A stretch of 54,469 nucleotides of DNA. Origin: Chiloscyllium plagiosum. Its lineage: Eukaryota. Below are positions 2,646 to 48,810 of this stretch, piece by piece; the stretch's first letter is position 1; the number at the start of each line of letters is the position of its first letter. The position numbers were made by a program, and so were the translations under genes. The notes under the pieces are model-generated. The model ran no database searches and was not told the origin of the DNA. It was given only the letters and a program-made list of their open reading frames with translations. Where the stretch lies: assembly GCF_004010195.1 (NCBI RefSeq), contig NC_057718.1, positions 86,425,835-86,480,303 on the forward strand, read 5' to 3'.

Positions 2646-3564
2646 TCAATGTCCAGCTGCTGCCTGCACTAACCAACTTCTGCCACCAGATGGAGGCATA
2701 AGGTATCTTTTTTTAAGTTAAAAATCACACAACACCAGATTATCAGGTTTAATTGGAAGCACACTAGCTTTTGGAGCGTCGCTCCTTCATCAGGTGGTAG
2801 TGGAGGATTCAATCCTAAGACACAGAATTTATAGCAAAAAATTACAGTGTGATGTAACTGGAATTATACATTGAAAAATACCTTGATTGTCTGTTGAGTC
2901 CTTCATCTGTTAGAATACCATGATAGTTTCACTTCTTTCATGTGTAAATCACAAAAGATTTTTTTAAAACTTGCATTCTCAAGTTGGCTGTAACAATCTG
3001 TGATAGCTAGACAATATGGTGAAGGCGTTAGCCCCCTGTGTTCTCTGTCTATGCCATGATGTTTAGATTGATTCTAATCTAAAAAGTGAGATAACAGAGT
3101 TTTATATAAATTCATGCAGTTTTTGAGCAAAGTACAATGTAATTCTGCAAGTACGTGTCAGAGTGTGGACATAGATACCACCATTACGCGTGGGGACACC
3201 TCCCACCTTGTACATGGCAGGTATTCATATGACTCGGCCAACGTTGTCTATCTTATACGTTGCAGGCAAGGATGCCCGGAGGCATGGGACATTGGGGAAA
3301 CCGAGCAAAGGCTACGACAATGAATGAATAGGCACCGCACAACAGTCAACAGACAGGAGGATTCCCTTCGAGTTGGGGAACACTTCAGTGGTCCAGGACA
3401 TTCAACCTCGGATCTTTGGGTGACCATCCTCGAAGGCGGACTTCGGGACAGGCAGCAGCGAAAAGTGGCCGAGCAGAGGCTGATAGCTACGTTCGGTACC
3501 CATAGGGAAGGCCTCAACCGGGACCTTGGGTTCATGTCACATTACAGGTGACCACCATTGCACT

Positions 3565-3752: not shown

Positions 3753-4130
3753 ATTGTGGGGTGAATTTGTACTTGTAGAATTACATTGTACTTTGCTCAA
3801 AAACTACATGAATTCATGTAAAACTCTGTTATCTCACTTTTTAGATTAGAATCAATCTAAACATCATTGCATAGACAGAGAACACAGGGGGCTAACACCT
3901 TCAACATATTGTCTAGCTATCACCCATTGTTAACAGCTAACCTGAGAATGCAAGTTTTAAAAAAAGGTTTTATGATTTACACATGAAGGAAGTGAAACTA
4001 TCACTGTATTCTAACAGATGAAAGACTCAACAGACAATCAAGGTATTTTTCAATGTATAATTTCAGTTACATCACATTGTAAATTATTGCTATAAAATCT
4101 GTGTGTTAGGATTGAGCCCTCCACTACCAC

Positions 4131-4168
4131 CTGATGAAGGAGCGACGCTCCGAAAGCTAGTGTGCTTC
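4131..4168 (+). ncRNA. Hammerhead ribozyme motif (Penelope terminal repeat)
   Basis: CTGATGA-A-GGAGC-GAC-GCTCC-GAAA-GC..GCTTC: core boxes flanking a perfect 5-bp stem II. Confidence 0.65.
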
Positions 4169-4392
4169 CAATTACACCTGATGGACTATAACCTGGTGTT
4201 GTGTGATTTTTAACTTTGTACACCCCAGTCCAACACCGGCATCTCCAAACCACAATCTTTTTTATAAAACATTGTGTGATGCATTTTGTTTTGTGAATTA
4301 TTTCAGCTCAGAATGCAGCGCTGCACATATACAGTGTGGTATCTCAGTTTAGACTTTGCCCTTTCAGGGTGACAAATTTCAAAAGGATTTGA

Positions 4393-9205: not shown

Positions 9206-9330
9206 TTGCCTAATATTTGTTAAAATGATGTACAAATGTTTCTGCTCAGGGACCTTGAACTAATTCCACTCCCTCTGAAACCTAATTGAATCACAGGGGG
9301 GATGTAGTTGCTTTATATAAAGGGCTGTCA
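9206..9330 (+). promoter_or_regulatory. Proximal promoter of GPCR copy A, with TATA box TATATAAA at 9314-9321
   Basis: TATA ~75 nt upstream of the ATG. Blocks TTGCCTAATATTTGTTAAAAT and TAATTGAATCAC are conserved upstream of copy C. Confidence 0.6.
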
Positions 9331-9395: not shown

Positions 9396-9465
9396 ATGGG
9401 ACTGTCCACAATTGAACAGACAGTTTTCATTTACTATCATTTCATTGCAATTTTTGGAGTTCCTG
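9396..9465 (+). CDS. GPR139/GPR142-like class A GPCR, copy A, exon 1 (MGLSTIEQTVFIYYHFIAIFGVP)
   Basis: ATG at 9396, open frame to CCT G|gtaag donor (phase 1). Joins in frame to the acceptor at 10203/10204 to give TM1 'FGVPANLLTIVLL'. Homologous to 24670-24748. Confidence 0.88.
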
Positions 9466-10203
9466 GTAAGAAACTGAAGCCGGGTGATTATTTATTTCCT
9501 TGTTAACCGATCTTTAACTCGCTTCTTGTTCTACTTCTCACTCAGCCTGGGAAACCTCAGGTTTTGTCTCTTTCGTCTTCAATCCCATTTCAGGCACTCC
9601 TTTGATAAACAGAAAATGCTGCAATTTATGAAGTTTAAATTCATCAGAAATTGTATGGACATGCAGTACATGAGGACATTACGTGCTGGTCCATGTTTGG
9701 AGAAACAGATGTTTCCAGACCCATTGCTCCCGATGCTCTTCACTGCTGGGGCTTTTCATTGTCCCATGTTTGTGTCTGTTATTGATTCATTGATTTCTAT
9801 GATTAGTTCACAACTCGGTGATATCTGTACCTTGTAAATACCAGGAGGGTGGAATGCAAACTGCAGGGAATGTGCTCTTCACTTTCTTAATTCCTAGCTC
9901 CTCCGTTTATTTCTGAATGTTTTCCTGGATTGTGAGGGGAATATGATGGTTTTCCATCTGACCAGTAATATCTCATGTGCATAAACATATTGTGAAGTTA
10001 TCAGGCAGGGAAAGCTCAATCAGGGCATAAAGAAGCAAAGAGAAGGATATTTTGATCTGGGAAGCTGAAGTAAGGTGGGTGGAGGCCCTTGTGGATCATA
10101 AACAGCAGAATACAACTATTGGGAAGAGTGACTTGAACCTTTTGCTGTAGTTTTCAGCTAAGAGGATGTCATTAACTTGGAAATGTTGCTCTTTTTGTTG
10201 TAG

Positions 10204-11150
10204 CTAACCTCCTGACAATTGTCCTTCTGTCTCGAGGAGGCTGTGGTCTATCAAAACGGGTCACTCTTTACTTGGTGGGTATGACAACAGCAGACCTTCT
10301 GGTCATCATTTTCAATGTGATCATCTATTACATGCTTGGATACTATATACCATTTTCATTTCTGGACTACACTTCCATTTACAGCATCAACGAGGTTATC
10401 AATTATTCGATTATTGAATCCTCAATTTGGTTGACGGTCGCTTTTACTGTTGACCGCTTTGTCCTCATTTGTTGTCAACATTTCAGAGAAAAGTATTGCA
10501 GGAAGGAGACTGCAGCTGTGGTGATAGTGACTGTGTGTGTTGTGTTCTCACTCAAAAATATTCCCTTGTATTTTGCGTTTGAGCCAATCTATATAATTAA
10601 CAATGTGGAGTGGGGCGCTCATTTCAAACCAACCTATTACACCTTGCCAGGATGGATCACTTACGACTGGATTGGTACTATTTTGAAACCATTATTACCA
10701 TATTTTATGATTTTGTTATTTAACGTACTGACTGTCCAACACATTGTGATGGCTAATCGAACCCGCAGAGCACTGCAAGGTCAACGCAACACCCAGAACA
10801 GCGACGATCCAGAGATGCAGAGCCGAAGGAAATCCATCATTTTACTGTTCACCATTTCTGGCACTTTTATCGTGCTTTGGATGCCATATGTTGTGTTTTT
10901 CCTCATTTCCAGGATTACAAGAAATCTTTATGAACCAGATCATTATACAGATCCCCTCCTAATCGCAGATTACACTGCAGATATGTTTCAACTGCTGAGC
11001 ACCTGTACAAACACATGTATTTACGCACTGGCCCAGACTAAATTCAGAGAAAGGTTGCGAGATGCCATAACATATCCATTCTATGCACTTTTTAACTCTG
11101 TGAAGAAACTATCGCAACACAGCAGCTGCACTTTGGCAGCAATCTCCTGA
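10204..11150 (+). CDS. GPR139/GPR142-like class A GPCR, copy A, exon 2 (338 aa spliced)
   Basis: ttgttgtag|CT acceptor; 7TM hydrophobic pattern; ADLL (TM2), AFTVDRF (DRY variant), LWMP (TM6), NTCIY (NPxxY variant); TGA ending 11150; 70+947 nt = 339 codons. Confidence 0.92.
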
Positions 11151-19440: not shown

Positions 19441-19510
19441 ATGGAACTGTAAACAATCGAACAGACAGCTTTCATTTACTAACATTTTCTTGTGACCTTT
19501 GGAGTGCCTG
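19441..19510 (+). pseudogene. Orphan dead exon 1 of the GPCR family (copy B)
   Basis: ATG GAA CTG TAA ACA ATC GAA CAG ACA GCT TTC ATT TAC TAA CAT ... GGA GTG CCT G|gtagg: colinear with exon 1 of copies A and C but with two in-frame TAA stops. No matching exon 2 seen before copy C. Confidence 0.85.
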
Positions 19511-19640: not shown

Positions 19641-19958
19641 CTAACCAACACACTGCCATGGAAAGCATCATACTGTGTGGCTTCAGAGGGCAGCTCCTTG
19701 TGACCAACATTACAGATGCATTGAGGATACCTAACGCATTTCAGTGAACGTTCCTAGCCACAATAATTAGTTGCCTCCATTGAGTTTTCAGCAGAATCTC
19801 TAACCAGCACACTGCTATGGAAAGCATCATACTGTGTGACTTCAGAGGGCAGCTCCTTGTGACCATTACAGATGCATTGAGGATACCTAACGCATTTCAG
19901 TGAACGTTCCTAGCCACAATAATTAGTTGCCTCCATTGAGTTTTCAGCAGAATCTCTA
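19641..19958. repeat. Tandem duplication, 2 x ~159 bp
   Basis: 19641-19799 and 19800-19955 are near-identical (few substitutions, one 3-nt indel). Confidence 0.95.
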
Positions 19959-24497: not shown

Positions 24498-24605
24498 TTG
24501 CCTAATATCTGTTAAAATTAATTATGCCTCAAACTAATTCTACTCTCTCTGCCATTTAATTGAATCACTGGAGGATTTGGTTGTTTTATTTAAGGAGCTG
24601 TCACA
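24498..24605 (+). promoter_or_regulatory. Proximal promoter of GPCR copy C
   Basis: TTGCCTAATATCTGTTAAAAT, AACTAATT, TAATTGAATCAC and TATTTAAGGAGCTGTCA align with the copy A promoter. Confidence 0.5.
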
Positions 24606-24669: not shown

Positions 24670-24748
24670 ATGGATCTAATGGAACTGTCGATAATTGAAC
24701 AGACAACTTTCATTTACTATCATTTTCTTGCTATCTTTGGAGTCCCTG
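24670..24748 (+). CDS. GPR139/GPR142-like GPCR, copy C, exon 1 (MDLMELSIIEQTTFIYYHFLAIFGVP)
   Basis: ATG at 24670 (alternative ATG at 24679), CCT G|gtaag donor, phase 1, homologous to copy A exon 1. Confidence 0.88.
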
Positions 24749-25613
24749 GTAAGAAGATCAATCTGATTATTCTTATCCTAATGACTTTTTAACTCTGTTC
24801 TTGCTCTTGATGTCCCTCTCAACATACAACACTTCAATTTCTCTCTCTCTGCGCTGAATTAACTTTCAGGGCATTCTTTCAATTAACAACTCTTTCTGCT
24901 ATTTATTAAGTTTATTCTCTTGCAAAAAAAAGTTTGAGATTCAGCATAAGATGTTTGAGAATTGATTTATGGTAAGTTAGCAATGTTTGAGAGGACTCTA
25001 TCACTGATGGTTTTCCTTGCCTCATATATGTCTGGGTCAGTTGTTGATCCATGGGTAAAGATTGATTGCTATGATTAATCAACAACTCCATTATCCTGTA
25101 ACAGGCAAATATCAGGATGGGCAAACTCAATAGACTTTGCTCTTTTCTATCTATAAATGCCTATGTTTCAGGTCATGTTCCTAATTTTTTCCAGTTTAGG
25201 AGAGGAATTTACTTCATTTTAATCTGTGCAGTATTGCCACACCCATATAGATGTGGTGATTATCAGTTAGGAGCTAGTCACTAAGTACTTAAAGAAGGAA
25301 GTAACATTTTGATATAAAAGCAAAATATTGTAGATGCTGGAAACCAGAAGTATTCTGAAGAAGTCATACTGGACTGGACTTGAAACATTAATGCTATTTC
25401 TTTCTCAACTAATGCCACTAGATCTACTGAGTTTCTCCAGCACCTTCTATTTTTATGTGACATTTTTATATCTGAGACAAGTGACATTGGTGGAGATTCT
25501 TGTGGAGCACAAACACCCACACAGACTTGTTGGAATAAATGACCTGATGCTGAGCTATAATTTCCAAGCAATGCTCTGTCATTAATTTGGAGATTTGACT
25601 CTTTTCTTTGTAG

Positions 25614-26518
25614 CTAACTTCCTGACAATTGTCCTTCTGTCCCAAGGAGGCTGTGGTCTGTCCAAAGGGATCACCCTATACTTGGTGGGTATGACAACAG
25701 CAGACCTACTGGTCATTATTTTCAATGTGATCATCTATTACATGCTTGGATATTATTTACCATTCTCATTTCTCGACTACACTCCCATATACAGTATCAA
25801 TGAGGTGATCAACTATGTGGCCATTGACTGCTCTGTTTGGCTGACAGTTGCTTTCACTGTGGATCGCTTTGTCCTCATTTGTTGTCAAAAGTTCAGAGAG
25901 AAGTATTGTAGGGAGAAGACTGCAGCTGTGATTATAGCAACTGTCTGTATTGTGTTCTGCTTCAAAAACATGCCCTTGTATTTTGCTTTTGAACCTGTCT
26001 ATGTAATTAACAATGTGGAGTGGGGTGCTCAGTTCAAACCAATTTATTACACATTAACAGGATGGGTGACTTTTGACTGGCTTGATACAATTGTAAACCC
26101 ATTGTTACCATACTTTCTCATTTTACTGCTCAACGCACTGACTGTTCGCCACATTGTGATGGCGAATCGAACCCGCAGAGCACTGCAAGGTCAACACAAC
26201 ACCCAGAACAGCGACGATCCAGAGATGCAGAGCCGAAGGAAATCCATCATTTTACTGTTCGCCATTTCTGGCACTTTCATCGTGCTGTGGATGCCATATG
26301 TTGTATTTTTCCTCATTTCCAGAATTACAGACAATCAATACAATCCTCATCAGTACACGGATCCCTTTCTTATTGCAGAATATTCTGCAGATATGTTTCA
26401 ACTGCTGAGCTCCTGTACAAACACATGTGTTTATGCATTGGCTCAAAGTAAATTCAGAAAAAAATTGATAAACATAATAACGTATCCATTGTCTTCAATT
26501 TTTAAATATGTCAAATAA
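25614..26518 (+). CDS. GPR139/GPR142-like GPCR, copy C, exon 2 (327 aa spliced)
   Basis: ttctttgtag|CT acceptor; ORF 25595-26518 with 7TM, AFTVDRF, LWMP, NTCVY; colinear with copy A at offset 15410. Confidence 0.92.
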
Positions 26519-26989
26519 TGAAAACAATCTGAGACACAGCTATATAAAACACTTATAATGAAATCTGCCTTTAAAATTGATACATATTTGCATGTTAAGT
26601 TTTAGCTAATTGGGAATATTCTCATCTCTACATCAGGACATGTGTTCAAAATGTTCCGTGATCAACTTCTTAGATAATAAAACAGCTCATGTACACACGC
26701 AGCACGATCTTGACTGTATTTAAAGTTGCCTGATAATTGGCAAGCAACATTTTCTCTATATCAGTATTAGACAGTGACCAGGGACTCTTGTAGTGTTCCT
26801 ACCTCTGAAGCAGGAGGCATGGTCTCAAGTTCCACCTGCTGCAGAAGTATACAACACACTTGAACAGGTTGGATAAAAAATACAGGCAGTAACAATCCTG
26901 AATGAGAGAGAATCTAATCACCTCACATTGACGTCCAACAGGATTATCATTGGTGAATTCCCCACTTCAACTCATGGGATCTACATGGG

Positions 26990-47254: not shown

Positions 47255-48543
47255 AAATCAAGTATCTAAGGTTTCAGCCCTTCTACCGACAATAAGGTTC
47301 TTCTGTACAATGTCTACAATAAATATTGTCACCAATTCAGGCACTGTAGCATTCTCCCCAACTATCAGAATGATTCTCTAGCTGTTTCCTGTAAATCAGG
47401 AGCTCCCCTGGAAACAATTACAATTTACTCGCAACAAAAACTGAAGTTGCTGGAAAAGCTTAATAGGTCTGGCAGCATCTGTGCAGAGTATTCAGAGTTA
47501 ATTTTTCAGGTCAAGGAAGCCTTCCTCAGAGTTGATGGTAGCTATGAAAATGTTAGTTTATATGAAGAAGACAGGATGGAGGGAGAGAGTAAGGTGTAAA
47601 ACAGTAGGTGGCTATAGTGCCCACAGATGGAGAAGAACAGTTGGACAGACAAAGAAGTGGACAATGATTGGGCTAGAAGGATGCATACCTATTAATGGAC
47701 GCTGTTAGTGGCTAACAATGGGTTATGTGTAATAGTATGTGATAACAAGGCCTGGTGTGTGAATGTCGGGGTAAGGACTTGGGAGGGCTCAAGCTCTAAA
47801 GTTATTGAACTTGATAGAGTCCAGAAGGCTGGAGGGTTCTTTAAGCTTGAGCTTTGCTTCGCTGGAGTACTACAGCAAGCCTGAGGTAAATCAATCTCTT
47901 AAAACTATATTTGCCAAAAATGTTTATATTCCGTGGAGAGGCTACTGTCCCTGTCCAGTCTTCACAAGGCCTTGAATTCCCTTGATGTTTAAAGGATCAA
48001 GATAAACCAGTCTCCTGTAGATCCATACTGATATACTCACCTCTGAGCCACAAATGTGGATCAGAGACCCTGTTCAGAAACTGGAGTACACTGTCCAGGA
48101 TGACATTAGTGCAGCCATGTAAGACGCAAACCTTTCAGAAGAGATATTAATTTGAAGTTCTGTCTGTTCTCTCAGGTAGACAAAAAAAGATATGCAGGTG
48201 ATACTTTGAAGAAAAGCAGGAGAGTTCTCCCTCTGTCCTAGCCAATCTGCATCACTCAACCAACACTGTTAATACAGCACCCCCACAGCTGTTAATGGAA
48301 CTCTGACCAAATTGGCTGCTGTGTTTCCGACAGTCGTAACATTTCAAAAACATTTAATTGGCTGTAAAGCATTTTTGGGGTTTCTGTAACGTTTGTTTGG
48401 ATTCATGTTGAACTGAGAAATAAATCGATCATTGCATAGATACTTGCTGGCACTCGACACTTTGAAAACAAAAACTGATATTTTCCCTCAAAGCGTCTCA
48501 TTTTTCCCTGTTGATCTGCAAATGGCCGACTAACAGACAAGGT

Positions 48544-48810
48544 AGATCAGCAGAAGGCTGGGAGAACACAGCAAGCTGGGCAGCATCAGGAGGTGGAGAA
48601 GTCGATGTTTCGGGTATGACCCGACTTCAGGATTGGGGTTGGGTGTAAGGGGAGTTGCAGGTCTCCTTACACCCACCCCCAGTCCTGAAGAAGGGTTACA
48701 CCCAAAATATCAACTTCTCCACCTCCTGATGCTGCCTGGCTTGTTGTGACCTCCCAGTCTCCTGCTTGTCTACCTTGGATTCCAGCACCTGCAGGGTTTT
48801 TTTTGCCTAA
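48544..48810. mobile_element. Palindromic hammerhead mini-element with 13-bp TSD
   Basis: TAACAGACAAGGT at 48531-48543 and 48811-48823; ~110-bp inverted arms, each with a decayed CTGAAGA..GGGT..ACCC..GAAAC. Confidence 0.85.

What the first reader, a model, noticed from the sequence alone, without database searches (positions are those of the whole stretch)
10380..10620. Both GPCRs have lost both cysteines of the near-universal TM3-ECL2 disulfide
Counting back from R3.50 of DRF, position 3.25 is Tyr (TAC at 10380-10382; 25790-25792 in copy C) rather than Cys, and ECL2 (FEPIYIINNVEWGAHFKPTYY / FEPVYVINNVEWGAQFKPIYY) has no Cys. The C3.25-ECL2 bridge is conserved in most class A GPCRs. Paired loss in two intact, diverged ORFs suggests a functional subfamily with a remodelled extracellular pocket rather than decay. 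The N-terminus is also only ~7-10 aa.
Basis: partly seen in the sequence, partly recalled or inferred. Interest (0 to 1): 0.7.

Follow-up and report, generated by a model that had tools for sequence, protein, structure and literature searches.

The report
Shark receptors repeatedly lose conserved disulfide
Two intact shark receptor genes lack both cysteines of the bond that normally pins the outer loop of this receptor class; the loss is old, is shared by a whole shark subfamily, and recurred separately in other branches of the same large gene family, which likely makes the family a natural test of how receptors work without that bond.

Summary
Observation confirmed: Tyr at 3.25 (10380, 25790), Ala at the ECL2 cysteine site (10617, 26027), no compensating extracellular Cys. 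Both genes are two-exon members of the large cartilaginous-fish 'GPR139-like' family, under purifying selection (dN/dS 0.22). The loss is not decay and not family-wide: 325 of 389 scored family proteins keep both cysteines. The window genes belong to one Cys-less clade (8 named shark species) whose sister, a chimaera orthologue, keeps both, so this is a single old inherited loss. A second clade (31 proteins, sharks, skates, rays) lost the pair independently (AU p=0.0002). A third shows intermediates that lost the ECL2 Cys but mostly keep C3.25. After loss, 3.25 becomes one of the fastest-changing sites, at a rate that neutrality could also give. Novelty is limited: human GPR139 is already known to lack the bridge, and the short N-terminus is family-wide. 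A remodelled pocket, ligand and sense expression are not shown; the one raw RNA run laid shows mainly an antisense polyadenylated transcript.

The parts
9396..9465 (+). Gene A exon 1 (ATG, short N-terminus, first part of TM1), ends at phase-1 GT donor
   Evidence: same N-terminal exon in named orthologues P0004-P0011; no spliced read seen (one search covered gene C only)
9466..10203 (+). Gene A intron, GT..AG, phase 1
10204..11150 (+). Gene A exon 2, rest of 7TM receptor (338 aa spliced model)
10380..10382 (+). Gene A position 3.25, Tyr instead of Cys
10617..10619 (+). Gene A ECL2 cysteine site, Ala instead of Cys
10755..10850 (+). Near-identical tract shared with gene C 26165-26260 (ICL3/start of TM6), likely gene conversion
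   Evidence: 1 mismatch in 96 bases, reached in 1 of 2000 codon shuffles
19441..19510 (+). Copy B: decayed orphan exon 1 with two stop codons, no exon 2 remnant in the window
24679..24748 (+). Gene C exon 1 (an in-frame ATG also at 24670)
24749..25613 (+). Gene C intron, GT..AG, phase 1
25614..26518 (+). Gene C exon 2 (324 aa spliced model)
25790..25792 (+). Gene C position 3.25, Tyr instead of Cys
26027..26029 (+). Gene C ECL2 cysteine site, Ala instead of Cys
26028..26800 (-). Antisense polyadenylated RNA over the 3' half of gene C; 3' ends at 26028-26032, poly(A) signal at 26043-26048; upstream extent not known
   Evidence: (run X7)

Best explanation
Genes A and C are tandem, purifying-selected members of one old shark subfamily of the cartilaginous-fish GPR139-like class A receptors that lost both TM3-ECL2 cysteines once, after the split from chimaeras, and they likely fold and signal with the outer loop held by non-covalent contacts instead. 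Shown: the loss, its single origin for this clade, a separate origin in a second clade, intermediates in a third, and rapid change at 3.25 afterwards. Inferred: the ECL2 cysteine went first and the unpaired C3.25 followed (order seen only in clade 3); a retained ECL2 hairpin with a newly fixed Glu (residue 159) holds the loop; the freed pocket-mouth positions now differ between paralogues and likely shift ligand access or preference for a small ligand (amino acid or short peptide), by analogy with GPR139, though not through GPR139's Arg6.51.
For: dN/dS 0.22, bootstrap 0.15-0.31, dS 0.48. All 16 named proteins P0004-P0019 (68-84% identity) lack both Cys. Clade support 97/87 and sister Callorhinchus P0022 with both Cys 100/98 (38-row subset); salamander, coelacanth and teleost outgroups keep both. 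Clade 2: 31 proteins, 29 without both; union with clade 1 rejected, p-AU 0.000193. Clade 3: ECL2 Cys absent in 8 of 8, C3.25 kept in 5 and lost in 3 at two places of the tree. AlphaFold2 model pLDDT 87, pTM 0.84, seven helices plus ECL2 hairpin. Glu159 in 16 of 17 clade-1 proteins against 1% elsewhere. GPR139 is the best solved-structure match by sequence (E 1.6e-10) and signals without the bridge (PMC5430874).
Against: No spliced sense transcript was seen in 4 runs laid on gene C; sense-direction depth in X7 was about 1-2 reads and the main signal was antisense. The model's hairpin comes from an alignment dominated by Cys-keeping proteins, so it does not test the loop without the bond. The rate at 3.25 (7 changes against a mean of 1.7; 12 against 2.7) is 4-6 times the mean, about what a neutral site gives at dN/dS 0.22, and the ECL2 site in clade 1 is only moderately variable (Ala in 12 of 17). 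Foldseek does not single out GPR139 (rank 15 among near-equal class A matches). The clade-1 stem is short (0.033), and the AU test used the simpler model that the tool says wrongly rejected 5 of 71 true clades.
Confidence: 0.7

Rival explanations
1. Neutral tolerance: the bond was never critical in this family, was lost by drift in several lineages, and the two sites now drift freely with no change in pocket or ligand.
For: Site rates match the neutral expectation of about 4.5 times the mean. Common replacements at 3.25 (Arg, Tyr, Gly, Phe) are one base change from Cys. Single-Cys proteins exist (12 of 389). GPR139 works without the bond.
Against: Both Cys are invariant across most of a very variable family (325 of 389), which implies strong constraint elsewhere. 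Losses cluster in a few clades, 59 of 64 non-CC proteins have Gly before the ECL2 site against 155 of 325 (not independent), and clade 1 fixed new residues.
Confidence: 0.2
2. The genes are silent or decaying relics whose low dN/dS reflects past selection; the locus is now transcribed mainly antisense.
For: Antisense polyadenylated RNA dominates in X7, and X1 contigs appear unspliced. A dead third copy lies between them. Birth-and-death family.
Against: Open frames, GT-AG sites, TATA-like boxes and downstream poly(A) signals in both genes. Intact orthologues in 8 named species. Receptors of this kind can be rare and tissue-restricted, and only about 2% of one raw run of unknown tissue was read.
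Confidence: 0.07
3. The Cys-less state is inherited from a common ancestor with GPR139/GPR142, so the window genes are close to true GPR139.
For: Both lack the pair, and both have Glu3.29 and Trp6.48.
Against: GPR139 matches at only E 1.6e-10, against 1e-109 for the Cys-keeping chimaera sister. The clade nests inside a Cys-keeping family with Cys-keeping bony-vertebrate outgroups. Arg6.51 and Glu3.32 are Tyr and Asn here. GPR139 itself was not in my tree.
Confidence: 0.03

Closest known systems
GPR139 (human; PDB 7VUG, 9M42) and, by recall, GPR142
   Same: Best solved-structure match by sequence. Lacks Cys at both 3.25 and 45.50 (PMC5430874, Homology modeling passage). Shares Glu3.29, Trp6.48 and an aromatic 3.33.
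   Different: Distant (E 1.6e-10). ECL2 is about 11 residues longer here. 3.32 Asn, 6.51 Tyr and 7.39 Asp replace Glu, Arg and Asn. The loss here arose inside a Cys-keeping family, so it is convergent.
RefSeq 'probable G-protein coupled receptor 139' models of sharks, rays and chimaeras
   Same: Same two-part protein layout, length near 324 aa, motifs and short N-terminus; 50-84% identity; at least 1679-2767 clusters at E<=1e-20.
   Different: Most keep both cysteines (325 of 389 scored). The label is automatic; none of my 10 paper searches found a description of the expansion or of its cysteine states.
Class A GPCRs without the TM3-ECL2 bond: melanocortin, cannabinoid, S1P, LPA receptors (list recalled, not tested here)
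   Same: Functional class A receptors without the canonical bridge.
   Different: By recall these are ancient family-wide states, often with other loop disulfides; here there is no other extracellular Cys, and sister lineages that keep the bond, plus intermediates, still exist.

Membership tests
Class A (rhodopsin-like) GPCR | 7tm_1 profile above the curated cut-off | tested here: met
   PF00001 58.6 and 56.9 bits against cut-off 30.5
Class A (rhodopsin-like) GPCR | Seven-helix fold with helix 8 | tested here: met
   AlphaFold2 pLDDT 87; Foldseek TM-scores about 0.7 to class A structures
Class A (rhodopsin-like) GPCR | C3.25-ECL2 disulfide (typical, not obligatory) | tested here: not met
Class A (rhodopsin-like) GPCR | Ligand-driven G-protein signalling | not testable with these tools
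   DRF and W6.48 are present; no assay
Cartilaginous-fish GPR139-like expansion | Nests among chondrichthyan members to the exclusion of bony-vertebrate relatives | tested here: met
   support 97/93
Cartilaginous-fish GPR139-like expansion | Two-exon gene with short first exon, N1.50 near residue 25 | tested here: met
   splice junction from sequence and homology only
GPR139 orthologue | High identity and reciprocal closeness to GPR139 | tested here: not met
   E 1.6e-10, while more than a thousand shark paralogues are far closer
GPR139 orthologue | Pocket residues F3.33, W6.48, R6.51, N7.38/39 for Trp/Phe binding | tested here: not met
   Tyr, Trp, Tyr, Asp here
GPR139 orthologue | Position in a tree that includes GPR139/GPR142; synteny | not tested
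   No stored GPR139 protein and no whole genome
Chemosensory receptor repertoire | Expression in sensory epithelium, one receptor per cell | tested here: inconclusive
   tissue unknown, mainly antisense signal

The most novel reading that the evidence does not exclude
The cartilaginous-fish GPR139-like expansion is an undescribed chemosensory repertoire, and shedding the TM3-ECL2 disulfide is a repeated adaptive route (at least three origins, ECL2 Cys first) that turns two invariant structural cysteines into diversifying ligand-specificity sites at the pocket mouth.
Probability: 0.18. Interest if true: 0.72.

Novelty: new variant of a known kind. Interest (0 to 1): 0.42.

Why it matters
The C3.25-ECL2 bond is among the most conserved GPCR features, and known exceptions are, by recall, old family-wide states whose transition cannot be studied. 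Here a Cys-keeping sister gene at 61% identity, two independent Cys-less clades and half-way forms coexist in one family. That makes two questions directly testable: what permits a class A receptor to drop the bond, and whether dropping it changes ligand range. It also gives a close model for the same loss in GPR139, a neuropsychiatric drug target. If the sites merely drift, the finding is a tidy but modest piece of receptor evolution.

Tried and rejected
Whole-genome survey: no genome is held, so no copy count or synteny. Pseudogene decay: rejected by dN/dS and orthologues. Compensating Cys pair: none. Short N-terminus as a linked trait: rejected. Single origin of all Cys-less shark receptors: rejected for clades 1 and 2; clade 3 was not put through the AU test. 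Foldseek: generic class A matches only. Run search: no RNA holder listed. Other coding genes in the window: 141 of 147 stop-to-stop frames of 75 aa or more were scanned (6 overlapping the receptor exons left out); 7 had a Pfam match, 5 of them LINE reverse transcriptase or endonuclease and 2 below cut-off, so no host gene for the antisense RNA was found. The 26-base satellite noted by another agent was not found here. Paper searches for the shark expansion or its cysteines found nothing relevant in the listings. PMC6367278 passages had no mention of the disulfide. The supplement of PMC11979771 could not be read and may list these genes or their expression. One search failed at rooting and one search's N-terminus pattern was off by one; both were rerun.

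Full report
Observation. The window holds two intact receptor genes on the + strand, A and C, 80% identical in protein over exon 2. Position 3.25 is Tyr (TAC 10380-10382 and 25790-25792) and the ECL2 cysteine column is Ala (10617-10619, 26027-26029). Each gene has a 70-base first exon and a phase-1 GT-AG intron (A 9396-9465 + 10204-11150, 338 aa; C 24679-24748 + 25614-26518, 324 aa); the junction rests on sequence and on the matching N-termini of named orthologues, not on reads. No cysteine lies on the extracellular side. A decayed exon 1 with two stops (19441-19510) and no exon 2 lies between them. The rest of the window gave only LINE-type Pfam matches above cut-off.

Family. Both proteins match 7tm_1 and C folds as a class A receptor (pLDDT 87). 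The homologue search returned 1679 proteins at E<=1e-20, the listed 120 all from sharks, rays or chimaeras and mostly labelled 'probable GPR139'. Human GPR139 is the best solved match but distant (E 1.6e-10). Closer single relatives exist in salamanders, coelacanth and teleosts and keep both cysteines, so the bond is ancestral.

Cysteine states. Of 485 proteins aligned, 389 ingroup proteins passed an 85% coverage filter: 325 keep both Cys, 52 lack both, 9 keep only C3.25, 3 keep only the ECL2 Cys. This sample over-represents losses, because three searches were centred on Cys-less queries; among 50%-identity representatives, 98 of 101 scorable proteins keep both. Trees were built without the two Cys columns. 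Clade 1 (the window genes plus P0004-P0019; Heterodontus, Carcharodon, two Scyliorhinus, Stegostoma, Chiloscyllium, Pristiophorus, Heptranchias) lacks both throughout; no skate or ray member appeared. Its sister is a Callorhinchus gene with both Cys (97/87 and 100/98 in a 38-row subset). The loss therefore falls after the chimaera split and before galeomorph and squalomorph sharks parted. Clade 2 (31 proteins; sharks, skates, rays) lacks both in 29 and has one lone Cys in 2; joining it to clade 1 is rejected (p-AU 0.000193, LG+G4). Clade 3 (8 proteins) lacks the ECL2 Cys in all, keeps C3.25 in 5 and lacks it in 3 at two places in the tree, which suggests an ECL2-first order. Three Hypanus proteins on a long branch also lack both, with unsure placement, and five singletons outside these clades lack one Cys.

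Selection. A against C gives dS 0.48, dN 0.105, dN/dS 0.22 (bootstrap 0.15-0.31). A 96-base tract with one mismatch in ICL3/TM6 looks like gene conversion (1 of 2000 shuffles). After loss, 3.25 ranks 2 of 263 sites by entropy in clade 1 and 2 of 286 in clade 2; the ECL2 site ranks 32 and 1. On the clade trees 3.25 changes 7 times (mean 1.7) and 12 times (mean 2.7), the ECL2 site 4 and 17 times. A neutral site would run at about 4.5 times the mean, so these numbers do not separate release from diversifying selection; no DNA of relatives was available for codon models. Clade 1 fixed Glu159 in ECL2 (16 of 17; Pro in the chimaera; 1% elsewhere) and Tyr280, candidates for compensation.

Expression. 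Four runs were laid on gene C only. No exon1-exon2 joint was seen. In X7 (single-cell poly(A) reads, about 2% read, tissue unknown) first mates lie on the + strand behind non-templated poly-T at 26028, 26029 and 26032 (13, 27 and 16 reads), with a minus-strand poly(A) signal at 26043-26048: an antisense polyadenylated RNA ending in the ECL2 codons. Sense-direction depth was about 1-2. In X1 (another species, RNA status a guess) contigs bearing gene A's letters have depth 40-86 and appear unspliced; C's 3' part has depth 17. Sense expression is thus neither shown nor excluded.

Mechanism. Most likely these are working receptors whose ECL2 hairpin is held without the covalent bond. The ECL2-first order, the compensation and any effect on ligand are inferred. 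The model was built from an alignment rich in Cys-keeping proteins and cannot test the loop. By analogy with GPR139 (Trp/Phe-activated, PMC5430874) a small ligand is my best guess, but Arg6.51 is Tyr and Glu3.32 is Asn here, so GPR139's binding mode is unlikely to carry over.

Prior knowledge. PMC5430874 (passages) states that GPR139 lacks Cys at 3.25 and 45.50. PMC12294341 (passages) states that the bond is well conserved. PMC8514136 (passages) places GPR139/142 with protostome MIP, FMRFamide and related peptide receptors. PMC11979771 (passages; supplement unreadable) describes small olfactory receptor families in the catshark and has no '139' or 'GPR1' match in its main text. PMC6367278 and bioRxiv 2025.04.18.647407 (passages) added nothing on the bond. 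Ten searches (listings only, apart from the papers named) found no account of the shark expansion or its cysteines; the library lacks most subscription papers. Other bond-less class A families are named from recall.

Verdict. Real, functional-looking, and a new variant of a known kind. Interest 0.42.

Noticed in passing
window 26028-26800, minus strand: Antisense polyadenylated RNA whose 3' end falls in or next to the codon of the former ECL2 cysteine of gene C; its poly(A) signal is spelled by Ile167-Tyr169 codons and is absent from gene A. Source gene unknown.
   Followed up: partly
window 10755-10850 and 26165-26260: Gene-conversion-like tract that homogenises ICL3 and the start of TM6 (the G-protein side) while the extracellular parts diverge.
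   Followed up: partly
window 19441-19510: Orphan exon 1 with conserved upstream region and donor site but two stop codons; exon 2 is missing; a 156-base tandem duplication follows at 19641-19958.
   Followed up: partly
window about 9314-9321 and 24587-24594: Conserved TATA-like boxes some 80-90 bases upstream of both start codons, also in copy B.
   Followed up: no
proteins P0403, P0386, P0458, P0390, P0486, P0380, P0381, P0465: Family members that keep an unpaired C3.25; several also have Cys at 3.33.
   Followed up: partly
proteins P0309, P0366, P0369: Salamander proteins are the closest bony-vertebrate relatives of the shark expansion in my trees (long branch, placement unsure).
   Followed up: no
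window 2715-3154 and 3769-4216: Inverted repeat pair, 448 bases, 92% identical; another near-palindrome at 48538-48777.
   Followed up: no
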